Translations under genes and position numbers: made by a program
Shown: positions 2,835-54,512 of the stretch, in pieces
Numbering within the stretch: the first letter of the stretch is position 1
How the letters are laid out: each line of letters starts with the position of its first letter
Assembly (NCBI RefSeq): GCF_037042905.1
Contig: NC_087250.1
Coordinates: 13,146,001 to 13,210,000 of the forward strand
Source of the DNA: Lytechinus pictus
Lineage: Eukaryota
Reading direction: 5' to 3'
DNA length: 64,000 bases
The notes under the pieces: generated by a model
Database searches by the model: none
What the model saw: the letters and a program-made list of their open reading frames with translations, nothing else
Told to the model about the DNA's origin: nothing

Positions 2835-4990
2835 ATGATGGAAAAGTGCGTTGTTCTTCTAATCCTTGGAGTCACTTTCTTTGGAAAAGAACTGCAGGCA
2901 ATGGAGGGCCAGGAGCCTACCACAACTGCTAGACCAATTGACATGACTGATGGGCAAGTAAGTGGTACTGGACAAGGCTCATCAAATGGAACGACGTTCG
3001 GTGACCAGGGTACGGATAATGCTGAGACTGATAACCATGAAGGTGGCCAGACTAATGGCCAAACAGCGGAAGAGACAAACGATGGAGAGGGAGATCCGAC
3101 AGACGTCCATACTGCTCAAACTAACGACCAAGCTGGTAATCAGACAAGTGACCAAGCAGTTAGTCAGACAGGTGACCAAGCAGGTAGTCAGACAGATGAC
3201 CAAACGGGGGAAGGGAGTGGTGACCAAATGGATGGCCCAACGGGTGACACTACAGATGACCAAACTGGTGATCAAACAAATGACCAAACGGGCGACAAAA
3301 CTGGTGACCAAACTGGGGACCAAATGGGTGATCAAATTGGGGACCAAACTGGTAATCGAACGAGGGACCAAACTGGTGTCGAAACGGATAGCCAAGCTGT
3401 TAACCAAACGAATGGTCAATTGGGTGACAAAACTGGTGATCAAACTGGCGACCAAACTGGTGATCAAACGGATGGTCAAACAGAAGACCAAACGGGTGAC
3501 AAAACTGGTTATCAAACCGGTAACCATACTGATAACCCAGCAAATAATCAAACTGGTTACAATACAGATGGCCAAGCGGGTGAACAAACAGGTGACCAAA
3601 CTACTGACCATACTGGTGATCAAACAGGTGGCCTAACGGGTGATCAAGCAGATGGCCAAATTGGTAACAAAACAGATGGCCAAACTGGTGACCAAAGAGA
3701 AGGCCAGCATAGTGATCAAACAGATGAACAAACGGGCGAACAAGCCGATGAACAAACTGGTGACCAAAGCCGTGACGAATCTGTTGATCCAGCAGATGAC
3801 CAAACATCTGATCAAACTGGTGACCAAACAGATTTACATACGGGTGACCAAACAGAAGGCCAAACGGGTAATAAAACAGGAGGCCAAACGGCTGACCAAA
3901 GTGGGAACCAAACAGAAGTCCATAAAGGTGACCGAACGGGTAACCAAACAGATGATCAAACTGATGATGACCATACATATTTCCAAACGGGTAACCAAAC
4001 AAATAGCCCAATGGGTGACAAAACAGGTGGTCAAACGGGTGACCAAACGGATGACCAAACTGGGGACCATACAGGTGACCAAACAGGGGACAAATCGGCT
4101 AACCAAACAGATAGCCAAACGGGTGATCAAGCACATGATGAAACTGGTAATCCAGCAGATGACCAAACAGCCGACCAAACTGGTGATCAAACAGGTGGCC
4201 AAACTGGCGACCAAACAGATGACCGAACTGGTGGCGAAACAGATGACCAAACGGGTGAACAAACAGACGACTACATTAATGACAAACCAGATGTGCAAAG
4301 TGGTAACAAAACTGGCGATGGGACTGGTGACCAAAACGATGAACAAATAAACGGCCAAGCAGGCGACCAAACGGATGGCCAGGCTGGGGAAACAACACAT
4401 GACCAAAATGAGGATGATACCACAGCCCAAGAAGGTGAACAAAGAGATGGTCAGGAAGGTGAGCAAGTAGAAGAAGAGACTGGTGAAGAGACTGGTGATG
4501 GCACTAATCCCGAAACAGTGGGCCAGGACAATGATAAACCAGATGACCATATGGGTGGCGAAACCGGGGATAGAGAAGACGATTTAGACAATGGACAAGA
4601 ACATGACAATGTCAACGAGGAAACGGCCGATAAAACAAATAACGAATTCCGATGACCAAGGAAACGGTCACACTGAAGATCAAGGAGATCGCGACGGTGA
4701 ACAAGCCGATTATCAAACTCATGATCAGACAGATGAAGAGGAACGGGATGATGAGAACGTCCAAACAGGAGACCAAACGGATGACGAGGCCGATGGACAG
4801 GCAGGGGACGGAAAGAAAGATGAGGAACAGGGAGATGGTGATGACCCAAAGGATGAACAAACAAATGATCAGACAGATGACCAACAAGACGAAGGAGTAA
4901 ACACGGAAACTGGTGATCAGAGCCATACCCATGAAAATATAACTGAAAGTCACAATGGCGACGAAGATTTCGAGGACAAGTCTGGTCCCC
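2835..4990 (+). CDS. Exon 1: signal peptide plus acidic D/Q/T/G repeat region, with a +1 frameshift at ~4647
   Basis: AACATGATGG start; MMEKCVVLLILGVTFFGKELQA signal peptide. Frame closes at TGA 4653-4655, but the same repeat vocabulary continues in the +1 frame to the donor C|GTAAGT at 4990/4991. Confidence 0.85.
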
Positions 4991-5872
4991 GTAAGTAATT
5001 GCTACTTAATATATGTTTGTTACTTCTTGAAAACAAGCTACGATTGTACGGATTGTATGTGCGCATTTTTATTAATTATGATTTTTAAGCATAAATTTGG
5101 ATGCTATCTGATGTCAGATACTTCATGCGCTAAATAAGATTAAAAAGGAAGTGAACTGCTCATTCATTCAAACACTTGGCGAACTACAACAGATTAGGTG
5201 CACAAAATATAAAATAAGTAAGCCATTATCTTACGAGTTTAGAAACTCCATGTTTGCATAAGTAGGCTACGGGCATATATGAATCTTTTACAGCTATCCT
5301 CAAGGAAATGAGGGAATACCCTCGATCGCAATGCTCTCTGAAATTATCTGAATTATATTGATTTTGAGGCAAAGCAAATTGACGGTTAAAATCAAGAATA
5401 GGTTCAAGTATATTGGATAGAGTTATGAGAGATGAGAGAGGGGGGCTTTGACTATGGTTATTTTTGGTTATCATGGCTTTAATGCTTCGTTAAAATGGCG
5501 ACACTCGGTTATCATGGTTATACGCTTTGTTAATATGGCGAAAGTGTCCAAAAACATTATACTCCCCTTTTTTTTTTATCTTTGCTTACAGCATTGATTT
5601 AATAGAATTCAATTCATTTTTCTAGCTTTGATATCAAACTTTTCCCATGATACACTGCGGGTTGGTAGGGGAAATAATTCATCCGACGATTTGCCACTTT
5701 TGCACTTTTATTTTCCAAATTGGACAATGTTATTTTTCTTACATCTTTTTATTATCATAATTCACATACTCATTGAAATATATATATATTTCAAATGTAT
5801 GATTTCCACTACTACTAAAATAATTAATTCGTTATATGGTTTCATGACGCATATGGATATATATGGATATAT

Positions 5873-5915
<43 letters not shown>

Positions 5916-7773: not shown

Positions 7774-7804
<31 letters not shown>

Positions 7805-10800
7805 GAAAAAAATGGATGAAGAGAACAATGGTAGGCGTAGCTTAAATCAAGGTTCCCCAGAGCTATCTGCCCTTTATCTGCCCTATATATATATATATAA
7901 TCTTCCTGTTTTGTTTACTCTTTCTTTCTCTCTTTATTTTTAATCTTGAATTGTTTCCCTTAAGTCTCATGGTAGTCGTTTTCCTCGGTTGTTTATTGCA
8001 TACCTCGGTTTACCCCTAAACATGTATTTCGAACGGAGTAACTCTGCATATTCCCTTTTTACAATTTATTTTCAATACCGTATGCTAATGAAGTGAAATA
8101 AGAATACTAGTTGCTTGTGTGTAAAATATGGACTTTTTTATATATTCAAATCAACGTGCGTTTATACGATACCCCTATGATTATGTAGTTCGTGGATCTA
8201 GACGTCCAAGTTAAGCATATAATCTTACTTGTGCATTACATGGACTGTCATAAAAGTATTTTTCGAAATTTAATCACATGATGTCCCACCGAGATTTAAG
8301 TATTACAAAAAAAGAAAGACATTTACATTGTCCGTTGCGTTGATATACAGAGCATTTTTTTTTTAATAAATGCACAGGGGATACATGGACCCGTTCTGTC
8401 ACTTACCTTCTCGTTTCCTTTTTACGTTTTCTTTTCTTTAAAAGCGGCCACCTCTCCTCGGTGGCCGCTAGATGTGTTTCCCTCTGGTGGCATTAATAGA
8501 CAGGTTTTTATATACGGTATGATATCATGATTGAATGCGGTCATTATGATAATGTGAGTAAAATAATAAATACATGTGTATATATATGCAATATTTAGAT
8601 TATTCTACACAGTAAAACACTAAATAAATTTGTCATCCAACATTGTTTTATAATGAACCTTATATTTGTTTGTTAAAAGTTTTAACAAGTGTTTAAAATC
8701 TTAAAACAACAAAAAAAATTTTATAAAATTAGATTCTCAATAAATTGAGAGTGGTTGTTCAAACTGTTAAACAGCTGCAGTAAGGTTCATATACTAAAAC
8801 AGCGAATTTACTGTGTATAGTCTCTGGCTGAACTTCCTTTTGCAGTATATCGACTTCCAGGACTTGTCTTGGATGAACATATGTTCACACTCTCCTATGA
8901 AGAGGAATGTACCCCATTCAGACTCACTTACACGATTCCCCTGTCGCAAGAGGGCGCCCGACAAACCGATGGGACTGATGAGGAGGAAGATGATGCTGAA
9001 AGCGAAAGGGGAGGCGATGGTGAAACTAGGGAGGTGATTACCTACGACGATTTCGGTGCGTTCAGACGGGGGGAGCAATCACTGCCGGAGATGCCATCTC
9101 TGCTCAATGGGAAACAAGGTAATTTAATACAGTTTCGTCTTTATTACTTATAACCCCTCTAGGTTGCCGTCAAATATTCGAATTTGTCTCCATGATCATT
9201 TCGGTTTATTTTTCGATTGGTCTAATGCCAATTCGTCCATTATCCAACTCCTCCACTATCATTTCGTTTACAATCGGTTCGTCCACTCTCCATATGATCT
9301 CACTGCTATTTCGTTCACTCACCCTTTCGTCTAATAACCAGTTTGTCCAATAGCCTTATTAGTCGAAATGGTCATAGACGAACTGGTGATTAGACGAAGT
9401 GATGATTGGACCAAAAGGTGATCGGACCAAATTGTTGTTAGGCGAAATGTTGATGGACGGAATGGCATTAAACTAAATGAAGGTAGACCATGTGATTTGA
9501 TTTTGATTTGATTTGATTTATTTATTTCCGTTTCACAATTGTACATAATATGATAAACATAACATAACAAGGTCGAAAATACTACAAGACAAAATATAAT
9601 ATATATATGATGAGTGGACGATTTCCAATAGACGAATTGGCAATTAACTCTCATTCCTACAGTTTATTAGCCCAGAGATAACAAATATGCTTTACCATTT
9701 TAACCCCTTTATACTAGAATTATACTAAACGAAACCGATCCCAAACCGACCGATGGGAGGCCATAGGAAGAACTTAATAGATTTGTTCGGTTTTCTTGGC
9801 ATATTCTACTTTCATAAAATGCTCTCCTTTTTTTATCAACGTCCACAATGCCCTACTGGAAAGAACACACTGGCCCGTATTCTGAAGTCTGGTTTAACTT
9901 AAACTCAGGTTAAAAGTTGTGGTTTAAGTATGGATAGCCAATTGTTACATAAATCACTAACAGCAGAGATATCATATTTCAGCTCTCTTGCCTCTAAAAT
10001 CATTCATAATTGTCTAGGAAGTATAAATAGATGATTGTCTCTCCATCAATGAATCAGGAAAGAGCACAGTAAATATAAGAAACATACAACTTCATAACAA
10101 AATTTGACACTTTCGGCTTCCCATAATTTTAGCACAAAGTTAACACCATGGTCTAAGTTAAACCTGACTTTAGAATATGGGCCACTGTCTCAAAGGTTGG
10201 GCCACAGTGTGTTCACAATGGCCCATATTCTGAAGTCAGGTTTAACTTAGACCATGGTCTAAGTCTGTGATAAATTATGGAAAGCCAAACATGTCAAAAT
10301 TTTCCTTACATTACATGTTTCTTATGCTTATTGTGCTCTTTCCTAACTCATGAATGGTGAAGAAAGTTATCTTATTTATCTTTCCGAAACAGTTAAGAAT
10401 GATTTCAGCGAAAAATGAGCTGATACATTTATTTTATATTGTTAGAGATTTACTCAACTATTGGCTGTCCATAGTTATACCACGACTTTAAACCAGAGTT
10501 GAAATTAAACCCGACTACAGAATACGGGCCGGTGTATCGACCACAATGTGAGATCCCGTTTAGACTGTTACATTTGACATAGTCACACTGCAGGTGTCCA
10601 CAGAGTGAATATATCTACACACTGTTGTATTTAGGCATTTAAACTGTGATAATAGTTTCATACAGTCAAAGTGACATGACAGAAAATTCTTTATAAGGTT
10701 CCGTGTACACAAGTGTTTAATTTTTTTTTTTAATGAAAATAAATGTATCATTTGCTTTTTTGGGGTTATATTAGACTATCTGGCCCAGATTTCGATGTCA

Positions 10801-13800
10801 GGTTTAACTTAAAGGTATTGTTTAACTTTGTGAGCAGCCGATTAAAAAAATTATCAAACCAAGATGAAACATGTGTACAAGTGCATGTATTAGAACTAAT
10901 AAACCCTGAAAACAACCATTATTGAGAATGAAAAGCTAAAACTACAAGGCAAACCCCGATTTTGTAAATAAGCGTCTTATAGACGCCTAAATAGTACACA
11001 TAAGTGTATGGGATGAAATTAAGATGGTGTTTTCGGTCACTTTATATTTCAATTTTTGAAGCACTAAATAATTATTTTCGAACGCAATTTTTTCTGGGCT
11101 TCATTTTTTGTAACATATCACAGACACAGGTGACAAGTGTGACCTTCTAGCTCAGATTTTTAAAAAGTCAAACCAATGTTAACCAATCACTTTAATAGAC
11201 CATGGTCTTTGTGCTAAAATTATAGAAAGCCAAACATGTCAAAATTGTGTTTACATTGAATGCTTCTAACGTTCATTTTGTTCTTTAATGATTCTTTATT
11301 CTTCCCAGACAGTTTAAGGATGATTTCAGAGACGAATGGGCTGATCCATTCAATTTCTACTGTTATAGATTTATGTATTACAATTGGCTGTCCATAGTTA
11401 AACCACAACTGTAAACCAGAATTTTAAGTTAAACCTGACTTCAGAATACGGGCCGCTGTGTAGTCTGCTGTGCAAACCCTTCACCTATTTACTCAAGTTA
11501 AGGGTCTGATGAATGACATGTGCAGCCTACTCATGCCTTGTGTACTAAAAGCCTCTCTAGTCTTTGCGTGGAAGCACACTAATTGTTGATCAAAGTTCCA
11601 ATCATAGTCTGTGCCTGCAGCCTAGCCACTGTGTCCCATTCAACATGTTCAAGGGTGTATGTAAAAGTGAGTTCTATCCCTTGCTCTTGTTAACAGCCAA
11701 CCTGGCCAAAGGAAGTAGCAATATGATCAGAATCGACAACTCGAATTTTACCACCGACAGACAACTTGTGATTTCTGGGAGATTATGTGGATTGGGATCG
11801 AGGTTGCTGTTGTTGTGCCCAACCATTGATGGTCGCTCCAGAATTCGCACCGATGATGCACCTTCGGGCAAATGCCACAACGTTTCAGTATACGTCGAGG
11901 CTCCCACCATTTCCAGCGCTCGATTGAGCAATGAAGGTAAATTAGTAATTTTTTTTTAAAGTTGTTACTGAAGCTCGATGCTTCCGTAAGCTGTGTCTTA
12001 GTTGGAACAATCATCGCATGTTCAAAAGGTGTTTTCCCCGCTTAAAAAGTTTAAAAAGTTGCAGCAACGATTAAAATAAACCTGTAGTTAACGCATTTTC
12101 CCCCTTTATTGGAGGACTACATATGAATATATATAATTTATCCTCTTTTTTTTTTGCAACAATTACCGCATGTTCCAAAGGTGTCGTCTCCCTTAAAAAA
12201 AACCAAAATAGATAGGTTGCAGTAAGGATTACAGTAAACATTAAACCAGTAGTAATATTAATAGTATAAGTATAATTTCTCATTATTCAATTATGGCACC
12301 ACCACCTCGTACATTCCATATTCATGAAGACATGCACATAACTGTTTCATCGAAATAAATGCAGAACTTGAAAACGTCGTATTTTTTTATTCCTTGTCCG
12401 ACTTGGATGAGTTTTTCAGCGATTCGTTCTTCTGATTCAAAGGGAATGCTCAAATGACATTTAGTTCAACCAGGAGAACCCCTTTAACAATATTACAAGC
12501 TTATACCAAAACCAAAATTAGTATTCCAGCTCTCTATTAAGAAGACAAAATTAGTCGTATCAATATCATTTTTTTGTATAACATCACGAGTCGGTGTCAT
12601 ATATATAATGCCATGAACTGTACGTGGAACTTGAAACAAAAGTTCCGGCAAAGGTTACATGATCCTGTACCTTTCATAAATAATCTTAATCAAATACACA
12701 TTTTTGCTGCAATTCTACAATTGATAAATCAAAGTAAGCTATAGCAAATCGCTCTACATTCCTTATGGTAAGTGGCAGATCACCATTTGATTTGGGGCCC
12801 CCAAATAAAATTTGCAATCAATCAAAAGTTTATACCGACAAGTACAACCCAGTAGACTTAGCTGGACGCTGCTATTTCAAGTTTTGCACGTGGCAATGTG
12901 TTATGATGTGTTTGTGTGTGGATGGATGCGTGTGCGCGCTTGTGTGATTATGTTCTATGTTTTTTTATTTTTGTTAAATATTGAATATTCGGGGTTTTCA
13001 CGCTCAGATTTTGCGTGTGAGGGTTCGCCTATGCATGAGCGTGTGCTTGTGCGTGCCATTATACTGCATTGATTTTGCTATTTCGTCGCTGCCTTTTATA
13101 TATATTTTATTTTGTAATATTTCAGGCGATGGAATCATCATCTTTTTCAATAAGAATGTGGCTATCAAAGATCTTCGGAAGTGTTCGAGTATTTTCGACG
13201 AATCTACCATCAATCAGTTGGGTGAAAACGCTGTGTGCAAATGGAAAGACGGAAAGAACTTGATTGTGGGTCTGGGGTGTGATACGAGCATCACCACAGG
13301 TAAGTAAATAACATCTGCAATATCCTCATGTTTCGCTCCGTCTAATCCCACTTGGTCTATTGTTACTTCGTCAAAAACTACACTGCAAAAACTCCTGTGT
13401 TGATTTAACACCAGCCCGGAATCTATATATATACATGATGATATATGTCCAAACCAGAAAAGTATTGAAACAACACCAGTTTGGAATCGAACCGATGCTG
13501 TTTTAATTCTAATTGGTGTTGTATAAACACCTATCTGGTGTTAGACCGAAACGAAACTGGCGTTTAACACTTCTCTGGTGTGGACATATATAGATTCCGG
13601 ACTGGTGTTAAATCAACACTTCTTCTGGGGCCTGTTGCAGAAAGAGTTGTGTCTAAACGCAAGTCAAAATATCAAGCGCAAGTCCCGAATGCGGGTGCTT
13701 CATAGGCTAAAAATCAAATTGCGCAAGATATTTTGAGTTGCGTTTGATCACAACTCTTCCTGCAACGGGCCCCTGGTAACCAAGTGGTCAAGTTGCCCTT

Positions 13801-31800: not shown

Positions 31801-34800
31801 AGCCGATTCGCTACCAACGCATGCAGCTGCTAGCTGCACCGCGGGTCAAATCCATGAAAATGAATTCCATGCAGCATGACCACATCCAGACAGAGTCTCT
31901 TTCCTCTATCAACAACATAATGAGAAGGAAAATAATAAGATAACTGTACTTACAAATAAGTGAATATATCCGAACCTAGGCTGAAGGTAAATCAACTCAA
32001 GGAATAGCAGCAGACGATATGCACCGACGATGAATTTCACGTGGCTGAATAGATTGTCACTCGTTCTGTTAGATAAAATGTATATCTCATTATTTTGACT
32101 AAATTACGAAACTCGGAGAATTAGTATTCTACATAAAAATTAAGTAACACCTGGTACTATTTTTTGAATTACGATAAAATATTTTTGAAGCAAAGAAATT
32201 GAGGTAAATTAAAATAAGATATAAAGGATCATCCACTTAGCCGCATGCGATTGTAAACAAACAATCAAAAGCACATGGCCAGCTTGCTCCACTGAACTGA
32301 AAATACGTATTTTCAGTTCAGTGGCTTGCTCGCCCGTAGAGTTGGATAAAGCGTAGCTTTATCCAACTCTATGTGCTCGCCTTGCTGATTGTTTACAATC
32401 GAATGCGAGCTAGGCGGATGATCTTTTATATCTAATTTTAATTCACCTCATTTTCTTTGCTTCAAAAAGGTTTTATCGTAATTCAAAAATTATAGTACCA
32501 GGTGTTACTTAATTTTTATGTAGAATACTAATTCTCCGAGTTTCGTAATTTAGTCAAAATAATGAGATAGAAATTTTATCTAACAGAACGAGTGACAATC
32601 TCCCAGCCACGTGAAATTCATCGTCGGTGCATATCGTCTGCTTTTATTCCTTGAGTTGATTTACCTTCAGCCTAGGTTCGGATATATTCACTTGTTTGTA
32701 AGTACAGTTATATCATTATTGTCATTCTCATTATGTTGTTGATAGAAGAAAGAGACTCTGTCTGGATGTGGTCGTGATGGAATTCATTTTCATGGATTTG
32801 ACCCACGGTGCAGCTATCAGCTGCATGTGTTGGTAGCGAATCGGCATGCAAGTTGAATTGTCCGACTCATAATCACCGGCGTAATCCCCCTAATGTATAC
32901 CTCTATCCACGTCACTTTGTTTTTCTAGAGCTAGAAACTTCATCATCATTCTCTTCATCTTCATAATCATCAATTTGAAAATCCAAATCTAGATAAAATT
33001 CTGGGTTTTCTTTCATTTCGGGATCGAAGTATTCAGTGACAATGTAAAGAAAACGTACCCTCGCAACAGGTTTTGCATGCAAGTGGAGCTTCACGTTGGA
33101 GAGCCAATCACGCCTCTCGTACAGAAAGTGACGTCATAAAAAAATCCCAAATTTCGCGGACGTAATTCTGCGTGTTTGAAGCATTCAGAGAGAGAACTTT
33201 AAACTATCAATTAACTGAGTTCCATCGGTCTCCATGATAAATGATTTACACCATCGTGTTCTCCTTATTTTCTCCTTTAATTTGATATATGATTCTCCAT
33301 TTTTACTATTTTCAATATAGTTCTAATTTAATATCAAAGTTTTCATACAGGTATATTGCTAAATGCCTAATGCGTTTTTTTTTTTAATATAGGAAGATCA
33401 GTTGAAGGACTCAAAAAAGCGAACCGCGCGCAGAAGGCAAAGGCCTCCCAGACGACTGGCGTCGACAGAAAGAAACGCGCAGCCCCTGTAAGTACTGAAT
33501 TGATCGATTTCTTAAAAAAATAAATGCCAGTTGTGTTAGTGATTTCAAAATGACTCCGTACAGAATCCAATCAACGGGCCATGACCGTATGTACAAATTA
33601 AAAGGAACATATGTGTCAGATGATTGTGGTGGAATATGTGCTATGAATGATATTGCCTTTTTATGCCGGGGGCTCTCTACCGGGTTGTCGCTTCTTTTTT
33701 CCTAATACTACTACTAATAATAACAGAAATAACAATAATGATAATAGTAATACTACTTATACTACAAATAATAATATTAACACTATCCCACATGTACCTT
33801 GTTGGTTTTCTTCAGCATTATCGTTTCCCAGCTTAGATTTCATGGTTTCACTTTTTGGTTCAGGTATGGTAACTGCACCGGAACTAGATCTGCGATGACA
33901 ACTAAATCTTGGTTTACAGACTTTCTAATTAAGTCAGTATTTACTGCAGCTGTTTTCATTGATGATAATCATGTTTTTAATAATAACAATAATCATGATA
34001 AGGTATGATTGCATTTAAAAGCAGAATTATTGGTTTGCGAATGAATTATAGGCCAGTTCCTAATGTGGGTATCGTTTTTTATGCACCTCTGATCAAATAA
34101 AATTAATTATATAAATTTGAAGGATTTCAAGAAGATGCAGATCGGCTGTGAACAGGTGCCAGCCGAGCACATGATTTAGATTTAAACCTAGCGGATTTGA
34201 GTTTTAATCTAATAATTCAAATATATAATGTATTGCGATTTGTAAACTATTCTTTTGGATTTAAAAATGATATCTAATGTTCGGCTGACCACCATTTGCA
34301 ACAGATCTGGTGAATGTTTCATAAGCTGTTCGTAAAGTTACGCACGACTTTACGCACGACTGGAACACGTTCTTAGGTCATCAAGCAATTACATAGTGAT
34401 ATATCACATAGCACAAGAGAGGATCACCAGTCGTGCGTAAAGTCATTCGTATCTTACAAACATCCACCTGGGCTCCGTAACACAAAGATGGGCCATCAAT
34501 CGCTAAATGAACTGACCAATCAATATCAATGTTACAAGCGCATTAGGTTAAAAATACTGACCTGGGACCAATCAGTGCGGTTCTTTCCTTTTTGCAATTC
34601 ACCGCATACCCTTGTGTTACGGAGCCCTGGATACATTTAAGATCCTTGAAAGTTAGATTGTATTGATCGTTTGTTGATTTTCCCCACACTCTAGGATTGC
34701 GATCAAGTATTACTTGACTTGCAATACGAGCTGCTAATGGAAGCTACCAGTGATGAGGCTAATTACAACTACAATCCCGGGGATGTCCTGGGCATGTTGC

Positions 34801-37800
34801 AGGCGGACACTGACGTGCCTATCACATGTCTGACACTTGAACAGCAGAGTACGTTCAACATAAAATAATTCATGAGAAAATTAGTAAACCAACCAATAAT
34901 TGTCTTTGTGTATTGAACCTAAAATGTTTCGAGTTAAAAATACTTGTTTTGCTACTTGGTAAGGTATTGGTAGTAAATTGGTGTTAACCTCTTTGTGTGA
35001 ATAGCTTTGCATTTGTTCAGTTATGTTTACATCAATATGATTTCGACCGTTTTGTTCCTTTTCTTTTTTTCTTTTCTGTATATATATACGCATTTGAATA
35101 AGTCGACTATATTTTCTTCATTTCCCAAGGGGGATCCACACTTTACAAGCTTTGCCTTTTAGTGGACCCCCTCATTTCCATTTATACTGTTTTTTGCTTT
35201 ACGAAGTTAGAATGCTCGTCTGTAAAATTGTACTTGATTTGTATTACTTTATATTACTTTGTATTCTGCTTTGAATGGAAATGGAATAAAGAATTGAATT
35301 TAATTAAAACATTCCAGTGGGCCTTTTTTTGCAAGGCCACACTAATCAGAACGTTGCATTATGAGTAGAGGACCTGGTCTGCTTGGAAAGTTGAATACTT
35401 GATGTGGTGCTCTTACGGATGCTGTTTCATACTTCAAAGCATTTGGTACAGGATCAATGTAATGATAATTTCATTTCGTAATTTTCCAAATGAAAATTAC
35501 AAGAGTCTGCGCATGCGCATAGGTGGGATCATGGCATCAAACGACGCCATTTTTCGATTCATAATTCCTTATTTTACCACCAAGTAAATTCAAGTCATCG
35601 ACCATTTTCCCGCCATAAAAATTTATGTAAGGTATTGTTTCAGTCGTTAGATCTCAATTCAGTGTCTAGTGCACTCGCTCCGATTTTTTTTTCAATAGTC
35701 CTTTGACCAATATCTTTACCGAGTTAGTAGTTTGACATTAAAAAGCTACAGACAAAGATTATCATCCTGAGATTTTTAGCCCATCCCGCGCTTAATATTA
35801 CTATTTTTAACAAGACAAAGTTACTCGGACTTGTGTTCATATCTTAAATTATCCCTCACATCAAAACCGTTTTATGGTAGGCCTACACCATTCCAGATAT
35901 AAATCTAATTATGTACTGGAATAGTGATAAACATGCACTTCTTTTGGAAATGTAACTATAATAAAACCAGGCTTTAATACAATTTACATAATTTATTTAA
36001 CTTATCGCCAGCTTTGTTCGACAAGGATAATATACAGGGGGCTGCCAACATCGACAAAAGTAACATTGCATTCACAATACACACATAGTGTATTGGGTCT
36101 GTTGTACTTGCACATAATACAGAATAATGATTTGTACATCGCATTGTTCAGTGTATACAGGAAACTTTTCTTTTCTCTAAACCAATCAAAAGTCATTGTG
36201 AGTTGAATTTGCAAAGTCCATGCTAAACCCTTCTTCAGGTTGCACCCATAAATAAAAGTGGCACAGAAGGGATTTTGTTTGTGGCAGGCAAAGATTAATT
36301 CTTGTATGATCAGAGGTTGTATCAATACTCACGTTGCTCTACCACATGCCTTTGCAAATATGAGGATGTACAGAGGCTATAGGAAATTGATAACTTAGAA
36401 ATAACTCGGTTAACCTTGATCCTTTTAAACCGAAGGGTCCACACTAGCATCTACAAAGAGGGTTCTTGAATCGGCGAGGGATCTTGAAGATCGTTTACCT
36501 CCGGAAACCGTAGATGGCGTGCGTCAACAGCTTGAGGATGCTAAGATGGTCTACCCTGACGCTTTCTTCTTTTCAGAGAATAGGTAAATGAAGCAGTAAG
36601 CTTTTTTCCTTACCTTGGCCGTACGCAATGGGGTGGGAGCAGTCCAACCCCCCCAAAAAAAATTTGAAAACGTATATTTTTTAGTAAAGTTTTCACAGAA
36701 TTCACCAAAAGTATGAATAAAATCCTTAAAATTTCACTTAACCAAATGCCAGAGCGCCCCAATCGTTTCGTTTTTTTGCTTTCTAGTTTTTTTTCAAATA
36801 AAAGTTAACGCGTCGATCCTCCCCTCCCCCGTCCCCCCCCCCCCCCCCCAGAGCAAAATATTATGCGTACGGCCATGGCTCCTACCTTTTGTTAGTTAAA
36901 AGCATATTATCGTGGATTTTCTTTGGAAATATGCCGCGTCTTTCAGTATAAATCACTCAGAGTAGAATATGATTTACGATGAAGACGTTTCTACTGCCAC
37001 TTTCTTTTTTGTAACAAATTCATTATCACTCTGACAGCAGCCAGAGATTAATTAGACTTGGTCGAGAAATATATTGATGGATACCTTGTGCGCTTGCCCT
37101 AAAAGATCTCTGTGACAGGAATTCCAATGTTTTTCACAACGTCAGCAAGTGATAATTTTTTTCAGTTGACTCCCCACTGACTTACTAGCCTATCTGTATA
37201 TGCATGGACATATTATAGGTCCATGGTATATGTTACCAAACAATTTATATCATTGGTGGATATGAGGGAGTCGTAAGGCATGATCTGACCAATGCAATGA
37301 TGGGATATGCCACACACAACTTGTGTGTGGCACAAACGTAATTTTAAGGCACTCTTAATTAATTTAGGTCGCTCCAAGGCCATAAGATAGGTTAACGTCT
37401 TGTCACTCGCAATGTAGTCCTACTTTTGACTTTGATTTTCAGGGTTTCATTATTTTCTATTTTCTTCCAAATGGGTGCGTCGTGGTCTAGTGGTTCTGAC
37501 TCTCGCCTTTGAAACAGAGGGTCATGGCTTCGAATCCTAGCCATGGCGTGTTTTCCTTCAGCACAAAATTTATCCACACTGTGCTGCACTCGACCCAGGT
37601 GAGGTGAATGGGTACCCGGCAGGAGTAATCCTTGCATGCACCGAGCTGATGCACCGAGCTACCGGTGATGGTAGCTCGAGCTAAAGCCGGGGTAATAATA
37701 GCAGCACTTTGTATCCTCTGGCAAAAAGCGCTTTATAAATCCAGCTATTATTATTACTATTTCTACAGGGACATCTTCGGACTTCTCACCAAGGGCATGA

Positions 37801-40559
37801 GCAAGAATATGGCACTGGGCGAAAAAGTTACCTCATTTGGTGAAAGTATGTTTATTTCTATGGATTATACACTGAACACCGATGCTATCCCGATATCGAG
37901 GGGCGATGGTAATATAATATTCCTTGGTGGCGACGATATCAAAGACAGGTAGGTGTTGTGGCTCAATTGAAAAGTCTATTAAGGGTCCCATCTTACACAT
38001 AATGGTAGTTGATCCATTAACCTCAAATGATATAAAATCCGGATAAAGTCAAAACTTTTTTTCTGAAGGAAACTTGAACAGTGTCCTTTGGGAGCAAAGA
38101 TGAAGCCCTCTGAAATGCCAAGACAACGATGAAAATACTACATTATACCTAAAAAGCATTTTAAACAGATAAACAATGCAGATGTTTGCATCGCTGGCTC
38201 TCCATAGTTGTGATTGATCGACTCAATCGCTGCTCTTCGTGAGGCGAGACCCAGGTATGATGATGATGATGATGAAATACTCGGGTATGATTCTACATCA
38301 CCTCAGAACTAACATTTCTATTACATAAAGTGTATATCACATTTTTTATTCCATGTTATTATCAATATCTCTATTATCATTATTATCATCATCATCATCA
38401 TCATTTTCACAATAATTATTACAATATTTATTTCCTAATTTCAATGTCGTATATACATAAATCTCCTCTTGGTGGTCTTTTTCTATGTTTTAATTTGATT
38501 TTGTTTATTCTTATTTGCTTTGTGTTTTATTTGTAGGTTTGATACGTCATGGGTTGGATGCGGATGCGAAGAATGTGTGGGAATCCTTCTGGAATCCATC
38601 GTGTTCCGGGGACAAGACTATGTAGGCGGCGAGTCACATGACAGTGACGTATTCCGTTTGCAGTTTTTCAGCCCATGCGCAGGTGAGAACGTCATGACGT
38701 GATGATGACGTAGTGATGCCATTCTCATTCATTATATCTGCAATTGTGATGGTTATGACATGATAAAACCGAAACAAAATTAAAATAAATAAGAAAGTCA
38801 CAGAACGAGGCTAGCGCGATCTTACGGTTAAAACGTCACAACTGCTGTATCTAATAATGACGTCTCTATCACTTTCAAAAATTGACGCATGCGCATGAAT
38901 CTATTGGTATGTCATTTCGCTTGAGGTGTACCGTTAGAGATTTATTGCAGTTTAACCTCAACCTCAGAGCAGTGTTTGAATTAATTTAACCCGACTTTAG
39001 AACACGGGCCAATGGGTTAAATCAATGTAGTATTGGACCATCTGATGTTTAAGATGATATTGATGATGATGGGTTCTGCTGGGCGCTCAAGGCGCTTGCT
39101 CAAAATAAGAAGTTTGGGATATCTGAGAAGTAGACCAGGGCCCCGCAACACAAAGGTTAGCAATTAATCGTAGGCTTGACTTTTACGATTGATTGTACAT
39201 TGTAGCCAATGCAATCAATCGTAAAAAAAATGTTCTACGATCATTGCTAAGCTTTGTGTTACGGTCCCAAGCTGATTTTAGAGCGAGTAAACATTAACTG
39301 TAACCATTAATCCCTTAATCAATTCATCATATTTCCTGATTTTTTTGTCAGACTCTACCGACCCGATCGAAGTGAGGGACCTGTCCGATCCGATCCGGTT
39401 TTGGTACCCGGTTTCCGCGCAGCCAAATGACCGACCCGTGTGCTCGTTCTTAGACCAAGGCACGGACGAATGGAGCCAGGCAGGGTTGGAGGCGGCCATC
39501 GATGGGACGGACGTCCGATGTGAAACCAACCACACCACCGAATACGTAGTTGACTTGATCAACGAGAGCGGGCAATCGACTTCGACCCTTCCCGAAGGTA
39601 AATTTACTATTTTGAAATGCTAACAATGCCTCCCACCCACCCACCCCCCCCCCCCCCCCCAAAAAAAAGGGGGGGTCGACATATTCAACGCTACAAATAA
39701 AACTGTGATTATTGACCGTTTAATTTAATTTGATTTATACGGAAGGTTGAAAAAAAATCAATAGAATGGAACTGCTTTTATTCACCCTTACACGATTAAA
39801 GATCTGGCCTTTTAAGAGGTCGAACAAAGTCTGCAAATCAGGTGCTGATTTTCAGCTCAAGAAGTGCTAAAAACGTACGTGATGCTACATTGAGCACCGA
39901 AAGTACTAAGAATCAGCACCTAATTGATTCACTCTTATAGCACTCTAAACTGTTGATTTTGCACTTTATCGTATGTGAGTAAATATCACAGCGTGGACGT
40001 TCTGGTAATTTCAATGAAAAAAAAATAGTTTACTGCGGCCCATCTATCCAGAGCTTTGATTTATCACAATGTCCTAATACCACAGATAACAAGAGGAAAA
40101 TTACCAAAATATACACACGTCACAAAAAATGAAAATATTTTCGTTAAGGTAAACAAAACTGAAACTTGCTTGGAATTTGCTAGCATTTTTCCCTTTCTTC
40201 TTCTTCTTGAGTTTGTATACTCGTTTTGCCTTCGGAAAATCCGCCTAATACATTAACTCGTTAGTTGTTATGAAGTCTTCTTTAAACATGTGTTATAAAA
40301 GATAAATCATCATTCGGCTTGTTTATTAGTGACTGATGCTACCACTGCTGGTGATGAAGACGATGATGATGATGATGATGACGGTGGACATATTGATATA
40401 GCAGGGATAAACGGTCTCATCGGTCTTGGCGTAGGCGTCATCGTGGGAGTCGTTGTTGCAGTCATTGTCGTTCTGGCCGCAGTCATCATCTTGATCGTTG
40501 TCGTTGTTAAACATGTGAATAAACCCAAGATGATCGTTGAACCGGTTGTCAAAGCTTAA
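2835..40559 (+). CDS. Spliced 20-exon gene: single-pass polycystin-1/REJ (receptor for egg jelly)-family protein with N-terminal acidic GDQT repeats, REJ module, GPS and one TM (~1961 aa if the exon-1 frameshift is corrected)
   Basis: Exons 2835-4990, 8846-9118, 11697-11936, 13126-13299, 14495-14773, 20373-20574, 22270-22424, 22916-23166, 24140-24328, 25009-25294, 28261-28418, 29628-29828, 30440-30563, 33393-33487, 34695-34848, 36436-36583, 37769-37948, 38537-38682, 39352-39597, 40330-40559. All introns are GT..AG with phases 1,1,1,1,1,2,1,0,0,1,0,0,1,0,1,2,2,1,1. REJ/PKD-type motifs LSGRAS..LTYEW, LDCSYSEDP..LEFRWEC and LTPGSQY; GPS-like C..W..G..C..HTT; hydrophobic TM. Confidence 0.85.
3090..4450 (+). 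repeat. Coding 12-bp degenerate tandem repeat (GGTGACCAAACN) encoding (G/D)DQT tetrapeptides
   Basis: Recurrent ggtgaccaaact/ggtgatcaaac/gatgaccaaac units; protein reads TGDQTGDQTDGQ. Confidence 0.95.
5860..5930. repeat. (TA)n microsatellite (others at ~7776-7802 and ~7885-7898)
   Basis: Direct reading. Confidence 0.9.
6893..7139. mobile_element. MITE with 8-bp TSD (P/hAT-like)
   Basis: ATTCAGAG|CATAGGCGGCGGAAGC ... GCTTCCGCCGCCAATG|ATTCAGAG. Confidence 0.85.
8846..9118 (+). CDS. Exon 2 of REJ-family gene
   Basis: ccttttgcag acceptor; YRLPGLVLDEHMFTLSYEEEC...LLNGKQ; AAG|GTAATT donor; phase 1-1. Confidence 0.8.
9872..11454. mobile_element. Cluster of three copies of a GGCCCGTATTCTGAAGTC-TIR MITE (9872-10183, 10220-10530, 10782-11454); the third is interrupted by a TTAA element (10813-11191)
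   Basis: Shared TIR ggccc(g/a)tattctgaagtc..gacttcagaatacgggcc and shared internal sequence. Nested insert is bounded by TTAA|AGGTATTG ... CAATCACT|TTAA. Confidence 0.75.
11697..11936 (+). CDS. Exon 3 of REJ-family gene
   Basis: tgttaacag acceptor; ANLAKGSSNM...EAPTISSARLSNE; AAG|GTAAAT donor; phase 1-1. Confidence 0.8.
13126..13299 (+). CDS. Exon 4 of REJ-family gene
   Basis: atttcag acceptor; GDGIIIFFN...LGENAVCKWKDGKNLIVGLG; CAG|GTAAGT donor. Confidence 0.85.
13380..13620. mobile_element. Palindromic MITE fragment (CACTGCAAAAAC family; related copy at ~45160-45400)
   Basis: gtgttgatttaacaccag.ccggaatctatat / atatagattccggactggtgttaaatcaacac inverted arms. Confidence 0.6.
13627..13773. 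mobile_element. Short MITE, GGGCCCGTTGCA-type TIR (related: ~291, 31122-31262)
   Basis: ggggcctgttgcagaaagagttg ... caactcttcctgcaacgggcccc. Confidence 0.65.
14495..14773 (+). CDS. Exon 5 (start of REJ/PKD-like module)
   Basis: ctctttgcag acceptor; PPMAVIDG..FALSGRASTGG..LTYEW; G|GTAATT donor. Confidence 0.85.
15219..19020 (-). mobile_element. CR1/L2-group non-LTR retrotransposon (5'-truncated; ORF2 plus 3' UTR) in intron 5, antisense to the host gene
   Basis: APE endonuclease (HINIRS, LTETW, MGDFN, SDHFP) and RT (QFGFR, FLDFSKAFD, GVPQGS, LFADD). 3' UTR stem-loop, AATAAA and (TAAATC)n tail at ~15221-15247. Confidence 0.93.
15786..18948 (-). pseudogene. LINE ORF2 (endonuclease plus reverse transcriptase), split by a 1-nt frameshift in a T9 run at 17343-17351
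   Basis: ORFs 17341-18948 and 15786-17237 join as NSIFF-NPTSSRE if one T is removed. Confidence 0.9.
19342..19931. mobile_element. Kolobok-like MITE, copy B
   Basis: Same termini, TTAA TSDs and internal sequence as 892-1471. Confidence 0.85.
20019..20303. mobile_element. MITE with 8-bp TSD (P/hAT-like)
   Basis: CTGACACT|CACGGGCAGAAATC ... GATTTCCGCCCATG|CTGACACT. Confidence 0.85.
20373..20574 (+). CDS. Exon 6 (REJ module)
   Basis: tttccaaacag acceptor; YTFRLTVTNKLG; AA|GTAAGT donor, phase 2, matches exon 7. Confidence 0.85.
20522..21629 (+). repeat. 82-bp minisatellite spanning the exon 6/intron 6 junction: 10 tandem units (20522-21325, last truncated) plus one solo unit (21553-21629)
   Basis: Unit gaaattcaaaagagtggcaacataaagggcaccaaagtttcggcgaataagaaGTAAGTattcccatgccaatgcaaaattc starts at 20522, 20604, 20686 ... 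21260. Confidence 0.97.
22270..22424 (+). CDS. Exon 7 (REJ module)
   Basis: catcatag acceptor; EYQWSV..LRFLPSNL; G|GTTAGT donor. Confidence 0.85.
22916..23166 (+). CDS. Exon 8 (REJ module)
   Basis: ttttgcag acceptor; APLRARIKGG..LDCSYSEDP..LEFRWECWD; GAT|GTAAGT donor. Confidence 0.9.
23345..23575 (-). mobile_element. Diverged tRNA-derived SINE (same family as 37473-37757)
   Basis: cctgggttgagtgcagc..gctgaagaaaacacgc..ggattcgaac matches the reverse complement of the 37.5-kb SINE. Confidence 0.6.
24140..24328 (+). CDS. Exon 9 (REJ module)
   Basis: ctttttcag acceptor; LTIEPSLL..TYSISCYVNK..GSPPR; AGG|GTAAAT donor. Confidence 0.88.
24441..24535. mobile_element. Small hairpin MITE (CACGGAGGATTAT TIR); second copy inverted at ~29327-29407
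   Basis: cacggaggattat..tactggggg / cccccagtaa..ataatcctccgtg in both copies. Confidence 0.7.
25009..25294 (+). CDS. Exon 10
   Basis: ggttgcag acceptor; VSLALLGS...LVKIDK; T|GTGCGT donor, phase 1, matches exon 11. Confidence 0.75.
25940..27265. repeat. Repeat with internal GCTCGCGCTTCGCGCTCGC units, host of the LINE fragment (related arrays at ~49160-49630 and ~59715-60050)
   Basis: Recurrent gctcgcgcttcgcgctcgca motif in degenerate ~100-120-bp units. Confidence 0.65.
26380..27064 (+). mobile_element. 3' fragment of a Rex1/Babar- or L2-type LINE
   Basis: C-terminal ORF2 motif IMSDQTHPL..LRSGRRL..RTSRRINSFVPFSI; AATAAA plus (TGAAA)n tail at ~27036-27064. Confidence 0.75.
28261..28418 (+). 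CDS. Exon 11 (REJ module; absent from the ORF track)
   Basis: tttcttctgcag acceptor; SILTPGSQYSLGVKVVSESSEGLAEIDFNVYDRVTGCTFEFGVNGDYEDTASD; GAC|GTAAGT donor. Confidence 0.88.
28460..28582. mobile_element. Short MITE, GGTGTTTCATAAAGCTGTTCGTAAG TIR (other copies ~30953-31120, ~34309-34470, ~50672-50843)
   Basis: gggtgtttcataaagctgttcgtaag ... cttacgaacagctttatgaaac in four places. Confidence 0.75.
29628..29828 (+). CDS. Exon 12
   Basis: aatgcag acceptor; VTYEVSGC..LTYRAF..VGVK; AAG|GTAACA donor. Confidence 0.85.
30440..30563 (+). CDS. Exon 13
   Basis: ctttggtag acceptor; VCNTTSGVCSEF..LKLE; G|GTATTT donor. Confidence 0.8.
31323..33276. mobile_element. ~2-kb TTAA-TSD (Kolobok-like) foldback element with ~750-bp internal inverted arms (31512-~32266 and ~32386-33136)
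   Basis: TTAA|AGGAGAAA ... TTTCTCCT|TTAA; the arms are reverse complements over their length, with scattered mismatches. Confidence 0.85.
33393..33487 (+). CDS. Exon 14 (contains RKKR furin-type site; absent from the ORF track)
   Basis: Poly-T aatatag acceptor; GRSVEGLKKANRAQKAKASQTTGVDRKKRAAP; CCT|GTAAGT donor. Confidence 0.85.
34470..34628. mobile_element. Short MITE, GGGCTCCGTAACACAAAG TIR (related ~39137-39268, ~43988-44145)
   Basis: gggctccgtaacacaaag ... cttgtgttacggagccc. Confidence 0.7.
34695..34848 (+). CDS. Exon 15 (absent from the ORF track)
   Basis: cactctag acceptor; DCDQVLLDLQYELLMEA..PITCLTLEQQ; A|GTACGT donor. Confidence 0.8.
35110..35308 (+). mobile_element. 3' UTR fragment of a CR1/L2-type LINE
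   Basis: Stem-loop with loop TACAAGCTTTGC shared with the intron-5 LINE; AATAAA plus gaattgaatt tail. Confidence 0.6.
36436..36583 (+). CDS. Exon 16 (absent from the ORF track; acceptor position uncertain)
   Basis: aaaccgaag acceptor (an in-phase TAG ~12 nt downstream is an alternative); RSTLASTKRVLESARDLEDRLPPETVDGVRQQLEDAKMVYPDAFFFSEN; AG|GTAAAT donor. Confidence 0.75.
36614..36877. mobile_element. MITE, CATGGCCGTACGCA-type TIR
   Basis: cttggccgtacgca ... tgcgtacggccatg with poly-G/C subtermini; TSD degraded. Confidence 0.65.
37473..37757 (+). mobile_element. tRNA-derived SINE
   Basis: A box TGGTCTAGTGG, B box GCTTCGAATCC, core ctcgacccaggtg..aatgggtaccc, (TAT)n tail. Confidence 0.88.
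37769..37948 (+). CDS. Exon 17 (GAIN-like region)
   Basis: tttctacag acceptor; DIFGLLTKGMSKNMALGE..; AG|GTAGGT donor. Confidence 0.85.
38537..38682 (+). CDS. Exon 18 (GAIN-like region)
   Basis: tttgtag acceptor; FDTSWVGCGCEEC..SDVFRLQFFSPCA; G|GTGAGA donor. Confidence 0.85.
39352..39597 (+). CDS. Exon 19 (GPS-like motif)
   Basis: ttttgtcag acceptor; IEVRDLSDPIRF..CSFLDQGTDEWSQAGL..VRCETNHTTEY; G|GTAAAT donor. Confidence 0.88.
40330..40559 (+). CDS. Exon 20: poly-Asp linker, single TM helix, short cytoplasmic tail, stop
   Basis: ttattag acceptor; DEDDDDDDDDD; GLIGLGVGVIVGVVVAVIVVLAAVIILIVVVV then KHVNKPK...KA; TAA at 40557-40559. Confidence 0.88.
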
Positions 40560-40887
40560 AGGGGAAGTGAACTGGGTGTGGTCTCTCATTGACCATCTGT
40601 TATAAATACATAGTCTTCAAATGAACGTTTTCAGATATGTACTAATACTACAGATAATAAATTGACCTATAGTTGTATTTGTATAGAGAAAATAAAATGT
40701 TTTGAAAAACAAGAAAAGTAATTGTTTTGCTACTTGGTAACATAATTATTGAGGTATAAATGTATTGAGTAGTTAATTAGCATGTTATCATTCAAGTGGG
40801 TCTATATTACTAGAATACTTCAGTATTTTGGGTCAGGAAACTGGCCAGGTTGAGGAATCGAGATGGCGCCGTAGGTTCGCATCTGCT
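40560..40887 (+). mobile_element. TTAA-TSD MITE inserted at the stop codon; related copy split by the LINE (15151-15218 plus 19021-19285) and a diverged copy at ~14810-15146
   Basis: TTAA|AGGGGAAGTGAAC ... GTTCGCATCTGCT|TTAA; aligns by eye to the reverse complement of both LINE flanks. Confidence 0.75.
40656..40661 (+). promoter_or_regulatory. Candidate polyadenylation signal AATAAA
   Basis: First AATAAA ~100 nt after the stop; a second lies near 40692. Both are inside a MITE. Confidence 0.35.
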
Positions 40888-54000: not shown

Positions 54001-54512
54001 TTGAATGCTCTTTTTTTCCGTTCCTTGTTATGGAGATCCACATTCAAGTCACCACCAATGATGACACTGCTAGACCTGTTCTGCTGCATGATGCATTGGA
54101 TTTCTTCTAAGATGGCCTGGTATTCGGCGAGGGCTTCAGATGAGGCATCACAAGGCATGTAGCAGTTGTAAACCAGCACATTGTGTTTTCCAAAGAGCAA
54201 ATGGAGACAAAGTACCCTTGGAGAGATTGTTGGAATAACCTTTAGTGAGCATGGGAGCACCTTCTTGACAAGGGTGGCAACACCTCCTCTGCCTCTTCTA
54301 GTTGGGAGAGAGCATAGCTGATCATGGGCTTTGGAGAAGGCATGAAAATCTGACTGAAGATTATTCAAGAAACCTAGTTCACCCTCATGAATCCAGTGCT
54401 CTTGAAGTAGCAGAAAATCAGTCTGTTTGAGTAGTAGAAGAATGAAGTCTCTGTTGGACTTTACCCCACGAGTATTGAGAGAAGATATGTGTAGGCTTGG
54501 TGTGGCGTTTAC
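51069..54512 (-). pseudogene. LINE ORF2 (APE endonuclease, RT, C-terminal CCHC finger) with one in-frame TAA at 53832-53834
   Basis: SLNTRG, LLQEHW, GGDLN, NID, SDHSP; QFGFQ, LDAQKAFD, GVRQGG, FADD; CRLC..EDVEHLVATC. ORFs 53832-54368 and 51069-53690 share one frame. Confidence 0.9.

What the first reader, a model, noticed from the sequence alone, without database searches (positions are those of the whole stretch)
2835..40559. Single-pass REJ/GPS receptor with a ~700-aa acidic GDQT repeat ectodomain in place of lectin domains
Seen: phase-consistent 20-exon model giving signal peptide, D/E/Q/T/G repeats, REJ-like module, RKKR, GPS-like motif, poly-Asp, one TM and a 16-aa tail. Established: PKD1-family proteins usually have PLAT plus 11 TM after the GPS; sea urchin REJ1 is single-pass with EGF/C-type lectin N-terminal domains. 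Inference: this protein has neither channel domains nor recognisable lectins and instead presents a long polyanionic, probably disordered stalk. It could act as a Ca2+-binding, biomineralisation or gamete-surface receptor. I cannot tell from here whether this architecture is already described.
Basis: partly seen in the sequence, partly recalled or inferred. Interest (0 to 1): 0.7.

Follow-up and report, generated by a model that had tools for sequence, protein, structure and literature searches.

The report
Single-pass sea-urchin REJ protein, acidic stalk
This is a real but unstudied sea-urchin gene for a polycystin-like surface protein with one membrane anchor and a long acidic, probably floppy tip; its general layout is already known from related sea-urchin proteins, and the copy in this sequence has a one-base break in its first exon.

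Summary
The gene is real, but exon 1 is not in phase. Exons 2-20 (19 of 19 introns GT-AG) give one open 1,243-aa trunk, identical to the Lytechinus pictus RefSeq model LOC129262926. The trunk has a PKD-like domain, a partial REJ (Pfam E 7.6e-29), RKKR, a degenerate GPS (H-T-T, below cutoff), poly-Asp, one TM and a 16-aa tail. In exon 1 a +1 frameshift at about 4638-4650 stops the signal-peptide/GDQT frame at 4655 (606 aa); assembly error versus allele is unresolved. An intact S. purpuratus model (1,853 aa) has the homologous signal peptide, about 580 aa of acidic repeats with different units, and the same trunk (52%; tail 13 of 16 identical). So the architecture is conserved at gene-model level. 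The class is published: SpREJ8/9 are single-pass, partial-REJ proteins without known upstream domains. This gene is probably neither of them. Most likely it is a mucin-like surface tether, shed or processed at RKKR/GPS; biomineral and gamete roles have no support here. Oddity: the L. variegatus model joins an unrelated 1,653-aa N-terminus at exactly exon 2, suggesting alternative first exons. The scan noted single-pass REJ/GAIN proteins before, in Naegleria.

The parts
2835..2900 (+). Start codon and probable signal peptide (about 22 aa)
   Evidence: Hydropathy peak. The first 75 aa align to the N-terminus of the S. purpuratus model P0158 with score 114; 0 of 2000 block shuffles reached it, max 68. 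SignalP was not run.
2901..4640 (+). Exon 1, ATG frame: Cys-free acidic repeat region (4/8-aa GDQT-type periodicity, 25% D/E, 20% S/T, net charge -123, 13 N-glycosylation sequons)
   Evidence: far on the disordered side of the charge-hydropathy boundary (mean H 0.30 vs 0.49); no Pfam family
4638..4655 (+). +1 frameshift (about 4638-4650) and resulting premature TGA at 4653-4655
   Evidence: error versus allele not resolved
4648..4990 (+). Exon 1, 3' part in the +1 frame: 114 further acidic codons (39% D/E) ending at a phase-1 GT donor
   Evidence: RefSeq model starts in this frame at Met 4591
8846..11936 (+). Exons 2-3 (8846-9118, 11697-11936): about 160-aa conserved Cys-containing region of unknown fold; the exon-2 acceptor is where all three N-termini join the trunk
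   Evidence: 53% identical to S. purpuratus; pLDDT <50; joins seen
13126..20574 (+). Exons 4-6 (13126-13299, 14495-14773, 20373-20574): pre-REJ beta domain plus PKD-like Ig domain
   Evidence: Model residues 261-366 match an AAVR chain (7wjx_R), Z 11.1, rmsd 2.1, 93 aligned, with PKD-domain entries in the next ranks. Aligns with a Phytophthora REJ-GPS protein, 26% over 473 columns, E 2e-23.
22270..30563 (+). Exons 7-13 (22270-22424, 22916-23166, 24140-24328, 25009-25294, 28261-28418, 29628-29828, 30440-30563): partial REJ module, tandem beta-sandwich domains
   Evidence: Pfam PF02010 E 7.6e-29, 101 bits, profile positions 13-351 of 452
33467..33478 (+). RKKR furin-type site in exon 14 (33393-33487)
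   Evidence: RKKR in L. pictus and L. variegatus, RKRR in S. purpuratus; cleavage inferred
33393..38682 (+). Exons 14-18 (33393-33487, 34695-34848, 36436-36583, 37769-37948, 38537-38682): predicted helical block followed by beta block, as expected for a GAIN domain
   Evidence: Secondary-structure order in a low-confidence model (mean pLDDT 39.8); 57% identical to S. purpuratus; fold not demonstrated
39441..39545 (+). GPS-like motif in exon 19 (39352-39597); H-T-T at 39531-39539 in place of H-L-T
   Evidence: Pfam GPS E 5.9e-4, 20.7 bits, cutoff 22.5; H-T-T in 4 of 4 urchin sequences scanned
40353..40382 (+). Juxtamembrane poly-Asp in exon 20
   Evidence: present in both orthologs
40413..40508 (+). 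Single TM helix with GxxxGxxxG pattern
   Evidence: Hydropathy 3.84, the only peak above 1.5 in the trunk; pattern kept in S. purpuratus
40509..40559 (+). 16-aa cytoplasmic tail and stop codon
   Evidence: 13 of 16 identical to S. purpuratus against 52% overall (binomial p 0.013; region chosen among 9 compared), 15 of 16 to L. variegatus; AATAAA at 40656 and 40691

Best explanation
A conserved sea-urchin single-pass member of the REJ/PKD1 superfamily (L. pictus LOC129262926; orthologs L. variegatus LOC121417241 and S. purpuratus LOC105442393), built like SpREJ8/9 but probably a separate, unstudied gene. Shown at sequence or model level: signal peptide, a Cys-free polyanionic repeat segment encoded by one large first exon, a rod of PKD/REJ beta-sandwich domains, a conserved furin-type site, a degenerate GPS, one TM and a conserved 16-aa tail. 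Inferred mechanism: the protein is a surface tether or coat. A disordered, probably glycosylated acidic brush sits on an extensible REJ rod, where length and charge matter rather than sequence. The ectodomain is cut at RKKR, and perhaps at the GPS, so it can be held loosely and shed. Having no channel or enzyme, it would signal only through a partner that binds the GxxxG helix or the tail. The +1 break in exon 1 is most likely an assembly error or a recent null allele of an otherwise intact gene.
For: Open trunk with canonical splice sites, identical to RefSeq. Same C-terminus and stop in three species. Intact S. purpuratus model with homologous signal peptide, acidic repeats and trunk. Composition kept (22% vs 25% D/E; 4.5% vs 5.7% hydrophobic; no Cys) while repeat units differ. 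REJ above cutoff; PKD-like fold. A single disruption in 5.9 kb of coding sequence and 92% trunk identity to L. variegatus argue against an old pseudogene. The extensible REJ/PKD rod is described for PKD1 in PMC1934368 and PMC3677617 (abstract).
Against: No read-level evidence for the frame or for the exon 1-2 junction. All orthologs are automatic gene models; the intact one comes from an unnamed MetaClust record clustering with LOC105442393. The current RefSeq models of both L. pictus and S. purpuratus start at internal Met codons without a signal peptide. The L. variegatus model has a different N-terminus. GPS is below cutoff and lacks the Leu, whose change to His blocks cleavage of mouse PC1 (PMC4810088). 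The GAIN fold was not recovered. No expression, localisation or ligand data exist here; the function is inference only.
Confidence: 0.6

Rival explanations
1. Alternative first-exon cassettes: one constant REJ-GAIN-TM trunk takes either the acidic repeat exon or an unrelated upstream 1,653-aa module (own signal peptide, two partly duplicated units, a 17-aa repeat array, an RVKR site). This is compatible with the best explanation and would extend it.
For: L. variegatus XP_041466809.1 'isoform X1' is 92% identical to the trunk from exactly the first residue of exon 2, and unrelated before it. The join fits the phase-1 acceptor. It has its own N-terminal hydrophobic peak and no internal TM.
Against: It rests on one automatic model; a fusion with an upstream gene would look the same. 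No matching exons in this 64-kb window on either strand. No such long form from another species among 7,993 scored candidates of 1,591-5,065 aa (word-limited, cluster representatives only). Other L. variegatus isoforms were not seen.
Confidence: 0.3
2. The frameshift is real and fixed in L. pictus. Exon 1 yields a secreted 606-aa acidic protein or a decayed mRNA, and the trunk is expressed from other 5' exons or not at all.
For: The window sequence reads this way. RefSeq did not correct it and starts at Met 4591. The earlier L. pictus model also lacked exon 1 (774 aa).
Against: The 114 codons after the break stay open, acidic and in phase with exon 2. The S. purpuratus model is continuous. A stop 335 nt before the first junction would be expected to trigger nonsense-mediated decay (general knowledge). 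The 606-aa product is not in the 15-billion-protein collection by exact look-up.
Confidence: 0.15
3. Biomineralisation receptor: the polyanionic stalk binds Ca2+ and enters the skeletal matrix after shedding.
For: Net charge about -160 over both parts of exon 1. A multi-pass REJ protein occurs in the coral skeletal proteome and is proposed to be shed (PMC4890752, passages).
Against: 0 of 7 short motifs of the S. purpuratus ortholog, and no 'REJ', 'egg jelly' or 'polycyst' annotation, in the 9 supplements of the spicule proteome paper, which include 1,316 peptide rows and a 450-row list across spicule, test, spine and tooth. This is a weak test: few motifs, and old gene models. Test/spine and tooth supplements were unreadable.
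Confidence: 0.12
4. Gamete-recognition receptor acting like SpREJ1.
For: Same superfamily, single-pass, 20 exons like SpREJ1; fast turnover of the N-terminal repeats.
Against: No C-type lectin or EGF domain. The lectin-less single-pass SpREJ8/9 peak in embryos in two species. No expression data for this gene.
Confidence: 0.1

Closest known systems
SpREJ8 and SpREJ9 (S. purpuratus; PMC1934368)
   Same: One TM, partial REJ (347 and 319 aa; about 345 aa here), GPS, no known domain upstream; SpREJ9 has a low-complexity N-terminal region.
   Different: 3,274 and 2,965 aa with 30 and 29 exons, against 1,853 aa in S. purpuratus and 20 exons here. Ser-rich rather than Asp/Thr/Gln-rich. The peptides of 4 of 4 published SpREJ8/9 primers are absent from the S. 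purpuratus ortholog models (best 4 of 7 residues). The SpREJ8/9 sequences themselves were not available for alignment.
SpREJ1 (sperm receptor for egg jelly)
   Same: Single-pass REJ-GPS protein, 20 exons.
   Different: SpREJ1 has EGF and C-type lectin domains and a complete REJ; none found here.
Polycystin-1 / PKD1-like 11-TM proteins, SpREJ3-6
   Same: PKD-like repeat, REJ, GPS-like motif before TM1.
   Different: No PLAT, no channel; stop 16 aa after the only TM; H-T-T instead of H-L-T.
Protist and algal REJ-GPS surface proteins (Phytophthora PHYPSEUDO_008082; Ectocarpus Esi0130_0068)
   Same: The only non-urchin hits were a Phytophthora protein and an unnamed one (2 hits). They share the pre-REJ, PKD-like and REJ order. 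The nearest Atlas clusters are all REJ, one mainly ciliate (scores 0.78-0.81, lead only).
   Different: 25-28% identity, other N-termini (TIG or long beta repeats); the Ectocarpus protein has 6-7 TM. No tree was built and the searches were word-limited, so closer kinship to protist than to animal REJ proteins is a lead only.
Membrane-tethered mucins (analogy from general knowledge, no call)
   Same: Disordered S/T-rich repeat exon whose units turn over, juxtamembrane cleavage module, single TM, short tail.
   Different: REJ/GPS instead of a SEA domain; strongly acidic; no homology shown.

Membership tests
REJ/PKD1 family (Gunaratne 2007 definition) | REJ domain (PF02010) | tested here: met
   E 7.6e-29, 101 bits vs cutoff 25; partial, profile 13-351 of 452; orthologs E 1.1e-27 and 5e-34
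REJ/PKD1 family | PKD (Ig-like) repeat before the REJ | tested here: met
   Z 11.1, rmsd 2.1, 93 residues aligned to an AAVR chain; PKD-domain entries at ranks 4, 6, 11; Pfam only sub-threshold
REJ/PKD1 family | GPS motif upstream of TM1 | tested here: inconclusive
   Exon 19 alone: E 5.9e-4, 20.7 bits, below cutoff 22.5; not listed for whole proteins; His and Thr kept, Leu replaced by Thr
GAIN-domain proteins | GAIN fold (helical subdomain A plus beta subdomain B) | tested here: inconclusive
   Helix-then-strand order right, but model pLDDT 39.8 and the region <50; fold searches covered only the REJ part
GAIN-domain proteins | Autoproteolysis at the GPS | not testable with these tools
   Needs biochemistry
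Canonical polycystin-1-like (11 TM) | PLAT domain and multi-TM channel after TM1 | tested here: not met
   One TM, then 16 aa and a stop shared by three species; 0 of 112 downstream plus-strand ORFs of 45 aa or more hit Pfam at E 0.01
SpREJ1-3 lectin receptors | C-type lectin domain | tested here: not met
   No such Pfam hit in 21 exon pieces or in the whole proteins; exon 1 has no Cys after the signal peptide
SpREJ8 or SpREJ9 ortholog | Identity of the S. purpuratus ortholog with the published cDNA | tested here: inconclusive
   Primer peptides absent (4 of 4); lengths and Ser-rich segments differ; no SpREJ-named member among 3 cluster members. This points to a different gene, but no direct alignment was possible.
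Adhesion GPCR | 7TM domain after the GPS | tested here: not met
   Single hydrophobic peak in the trunk
Echinoderm skeletal matrix protein | Peptides in the biomineral proteome | tested here: inconclusive
   0 of 7 motifs in spicule proteome supplements; other supplements unreadable

The most novel reading that the evidence does not exclude
The locus is a variable-plus-constant receptor. Separate promoters and first-exon modules (a fast-turning acidic repeat exon, or an orphan 1,653-aa module with its own signal peptide) splice in phase 1 onto one REJ-GAIN-TM trunk. The trunk has swapped GPS self-cleavage (H-T-T) for a conserved furin site and signals through a conserved 16-aa tail.
Probability: 0.25. 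Interest if true: 0.6.

Novelty: new member of a known kind. Interest (0 to 1): 0.33.

Why it matters
It adds a probable further member to the ten named sea-urchin REJ genes (14 REJ-domain models were counted in Mesocentrotus). It also corrects an annotation: the L. pictus RefSeq protein lacks its signal peptide and about 580 aa because of a one-base break. A single-pass REJ-GAIN protein with a natural H-T-T site and a conserved furin site would be a simple test of what REJ/GAIN does without a channel or 7TM partner. If the alternative N-termini are real, it would show exchangeable ectodomain tips on a polycystin-like trunk.

Tried and rejected
No whole genome is held, so sequence upstream of the window could not be examined. 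Sequencing runs: no RNA holder listed. No reads were laid (one search returned nothing), so the frameshift and the exon 1-2 junction have no read-level test. A hidden mini-intron in exon 1 was rejected because candidates lack polypyrimidine tracts. HMMER search of the 606-aa frame against 1.84 billion representatives gave 313 hits at E 0.001. The best 150 listed were 16-52% identical over repeat stretches; the 7 looked up were unnamed or unrelated low-complexity proteins, so I treated them as compositional matches. PDB sequence searches: 0 hits at E 1 for the protein and 5 hits at E 0.12 or worse for the alignment. No GAIN structure was listed in the fold searches of the low-confidence C-terminal model; this is no evidence against GAIN. 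The Atlas gave no usable hit for residues 30-605 of the L. variegatus N-terminus, and Pfam none for that N-terminus. Metagenome scan: 0 of 44 pattern matches confirmed. No named animal PKD1/REJ paralog surfaced or 36 (147, 7,993 and 7,998 candidates scored), so no phylogeny was built. Locus and accession ids appear in 0 papers. PMC9552553 had 0 occurrences of five terms. The Pfam scan of P0158 returned 0 families although its shorter cluster mates hit REJ, probably a low-complexity filter effect. Earlier-findings search by sequence was empty.

Full report
OBSERVATION. I rebuilt the gene from the sequence. Twenty exon blocks run from ATG 2835 to TAA 40559, and 19 of 19 introns are GT-AG. Exons 2-20 give one open frame of 1,243 aa. 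A search with exon 5 returned one protein among 147 candidates, Lytechinus pictus LOC129262926. The window model read from Met 4591 equals it letter for letter (XP_063957014.1).

THE MODEL IS NOT IN PHASE IN EXON 1. The coding total from ATG 2835 is 5,887 nt (3n+1). The ATG frame is open for 606 aa and stops at 4653-4655. The acidic reading continues in the +1 frame, with 0 stops and 39% D/E over 113 codons, to the donor at 4990. The switch lies at about 4638-4650. Formal mini-introns that would mend it lack acceptor tracts. No reads could be laid, so assembly error and allele cannot be told apart. A single break in 5.9 kb, with 92% trunk identity to L. variegatus, argues for an error or a recent allele rather than an old pseudogene (inference).

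THE ARCHITECTURE IS CONSERVED AT MODEL LEVEL. The S. purpuratus ortholog (LOC105442393 cluster) is 52% identical over the trunk (650 of 1,243). One cluster member, P0158 (1,853 aa), is continuous from a signal peptide through about 580 aa of acidic repeats into the trunk. Its first 75 aa are homologous to those after ATG 2835 (score 114; 0 of 2000 block shuffles reached it). Composition is kept: 22% vs 25% D/E, 25% vs 20% S/T, no Cys, under 6% hydrophobic, both far on the disordered side of the charge-hydropathy line. The units differ: 4/8-aa periodicity in L. pictus, 28- and 26-aa units in S. purpuratus. GDQT itself is therefore not the conserved feature. These are automatic gene models, not cDNAs. 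The shorter S. purpuratus RefSeq isoform also starts at an internal Met.

TRUNK. Pfam REJ is matched at E 7.6e-29 over residues 545-889, a partial REJ. An AlphaFold model of residues 134-720 is confident from about residue 293 onward and shows tandem beta-sandwich domains. One matches an AAVR chain at Z 11.1, rmsd 2.1, 93 residues, with PKD-domain entries close behind. The first 160 aa (exons 2-3) are conserved (53%) but unresolved. The C-terminal model is poor (pLDDT 39.8). It shows helices followed by strands where a GAIN domain is expected, and fold searches did not test that part. Exon 19 hits GPS at E 5.9e-4, below cutoff. All four urchin sequences scanned read H-T-T instead of H-L-T. In mouse PC1 the Leu-to-His change blocks cleavage (PMC4810088), so self-cleavage here is uncertain. 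A furin-type RKKR/RKRR is conserved about 275 aa upstream. There is one TM with a GxxxGxxxG pattern. The 16-aa tail is 13 of 16 identical to S. purpuratus, the highest of nine regions compared. All three species end in the same residues, and 0 of 112 downstream plus-strand ORFs hit Pfam, so PLAT or channel exons are unlikely.

UNEXPECTED. L. variegatus XP_041466809.1 (isoform X1, 2,894 aa) matches from exactly the first residue of exon 2. Before that it carries 1,653 unrelated residues with their own signal-like peak, partly duplicated units, a 17-aa repeat array and an RVKR site. Pfam finds nothing in this N-terminus, the Atlas nothing in its residues 30-605, and no matching exons lie in the window. 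This is either an alternative 5' module or a fused model; I give the first about 0.3.

HOW IT LIKELY WORKS (inference, 0.6 overall). A type I surface glycoprotein presents a polyanionic disordered brush on an extensible PKD/REJ rod. It is processed at RKKR and perhaps the GPS, so the ectodomain can be released. With no channel or enzyme, any signal passes through a partner of the TM helix or the conserved tail. The rivals are a fixed truncation (0.15), a skeletal-matrix role (0.12) and gamete recognition (0.1). For the skeletal role, 0 of 7 motifs were found in the spicule proteome supplements, a weak test. For gamete recognition, there is no lectin domain.

COMPARISON WITH KNOWN PROTEINS. By the published criterion (a REJ domain) it belongs to the REJ/PKD1 family. 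It is not an 11-TM polycystin, an adhesion GPCR or a lectin REJ. Gunaratne et al. already describe SpREJ8 and 9 as one-TM, partial-REJ, GPS proteins without known upstream domains, SpREJ9 with a Ser-rich N-terminal region. The gene here is probably not either: lengths differ, the primer peptides are absent (4 of 4), and no SpREJ name is in its cluster. A direct alignment was not possible. Mesocentrotus has four further REJ-domain models; the supplement that lists them was unreadable and may hold this ortholog. Outside urchins the only hits were a Phytophthora and an unnamed REJ protein; the searches were word-limited, so this is a lead. I found no paper on this gene in seven searches of a library that lacks most subscription journals.

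PAPERS SEEN. PMC1934368: parts 1-3 of 4 of the text. PMC13672419: passages and section 20 part 1. PMC4890752, PMC4700764, PMC4810088, PMC13197933: passages. PMC3677617: abstract. PMC2909932: supplement searches and file list. PMC9552553: term search with no hits. Supplements of PMC1934368, PMC13672419, PMC2527298, PMC2614417 and PMC7037938 were unreadable and may bear on paralog identity and on the skeletal or adhesive role. The furin consensus, GxxxG as a dimer motif, nonsense-mediated decay and the mucin analogy are general knowledge, not from a call.

VERDICT. Interest 0.33; 0.6 if exchangeable first-exon modules are confirmed (probability 0.25).

Noticed in passing
window 20522-21325 and about 21555-21625: 82-bp tandem array (9.8 copies, 99% identical) that duplicates the 3' end of exon 6 together with its GT donor; 11 donor-bearing copies in all. 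An in-frame stop follows the first donor, so only the first copy is productive, and RefSeq uses it.
   Followed up: partly
window about 15786-18954, minus strand (intron 5): Non-LTR retrotransposon with endonuclease and reverse transcriptase in two overlapping frames (Pfam E 3.9e-8 and 6.3e-39).
   Followed up: partly
window 51069-57337, minus strand: Second LINE-like element: a 942-aa ORF without Pfam hit, then endonuclease and reverse transcriptase in separate frames.
   Followed up: partly
window 26390-26701, plus strand: Short ORF that looks by eye like the 3' end of a reverse-transcriptase gene, inside a 113-bp-unit repeat region.
   Followed up: no
window about 31300-33240 (intron 13): Long imperfect inverted repeat visible by eye, with arms at about 31520-32390 and 32390-33140; possibly a foldback or MITE-like element.
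   Followed up: no
P0002 residues 30-1653 (L. variegatus XP_041466809.1): Orphan secreted-type module with internally duplicated units and a 17-aa repeat array; no Pfam hit, and no Atlas hit for residues 30-605.
   Followed up: partly
P0003 vs P0001: The two L. pictus RefSeq versions differ at 12 of 773 residues, showing polymorphism or assembly differences at this locus.
   Followed up: no
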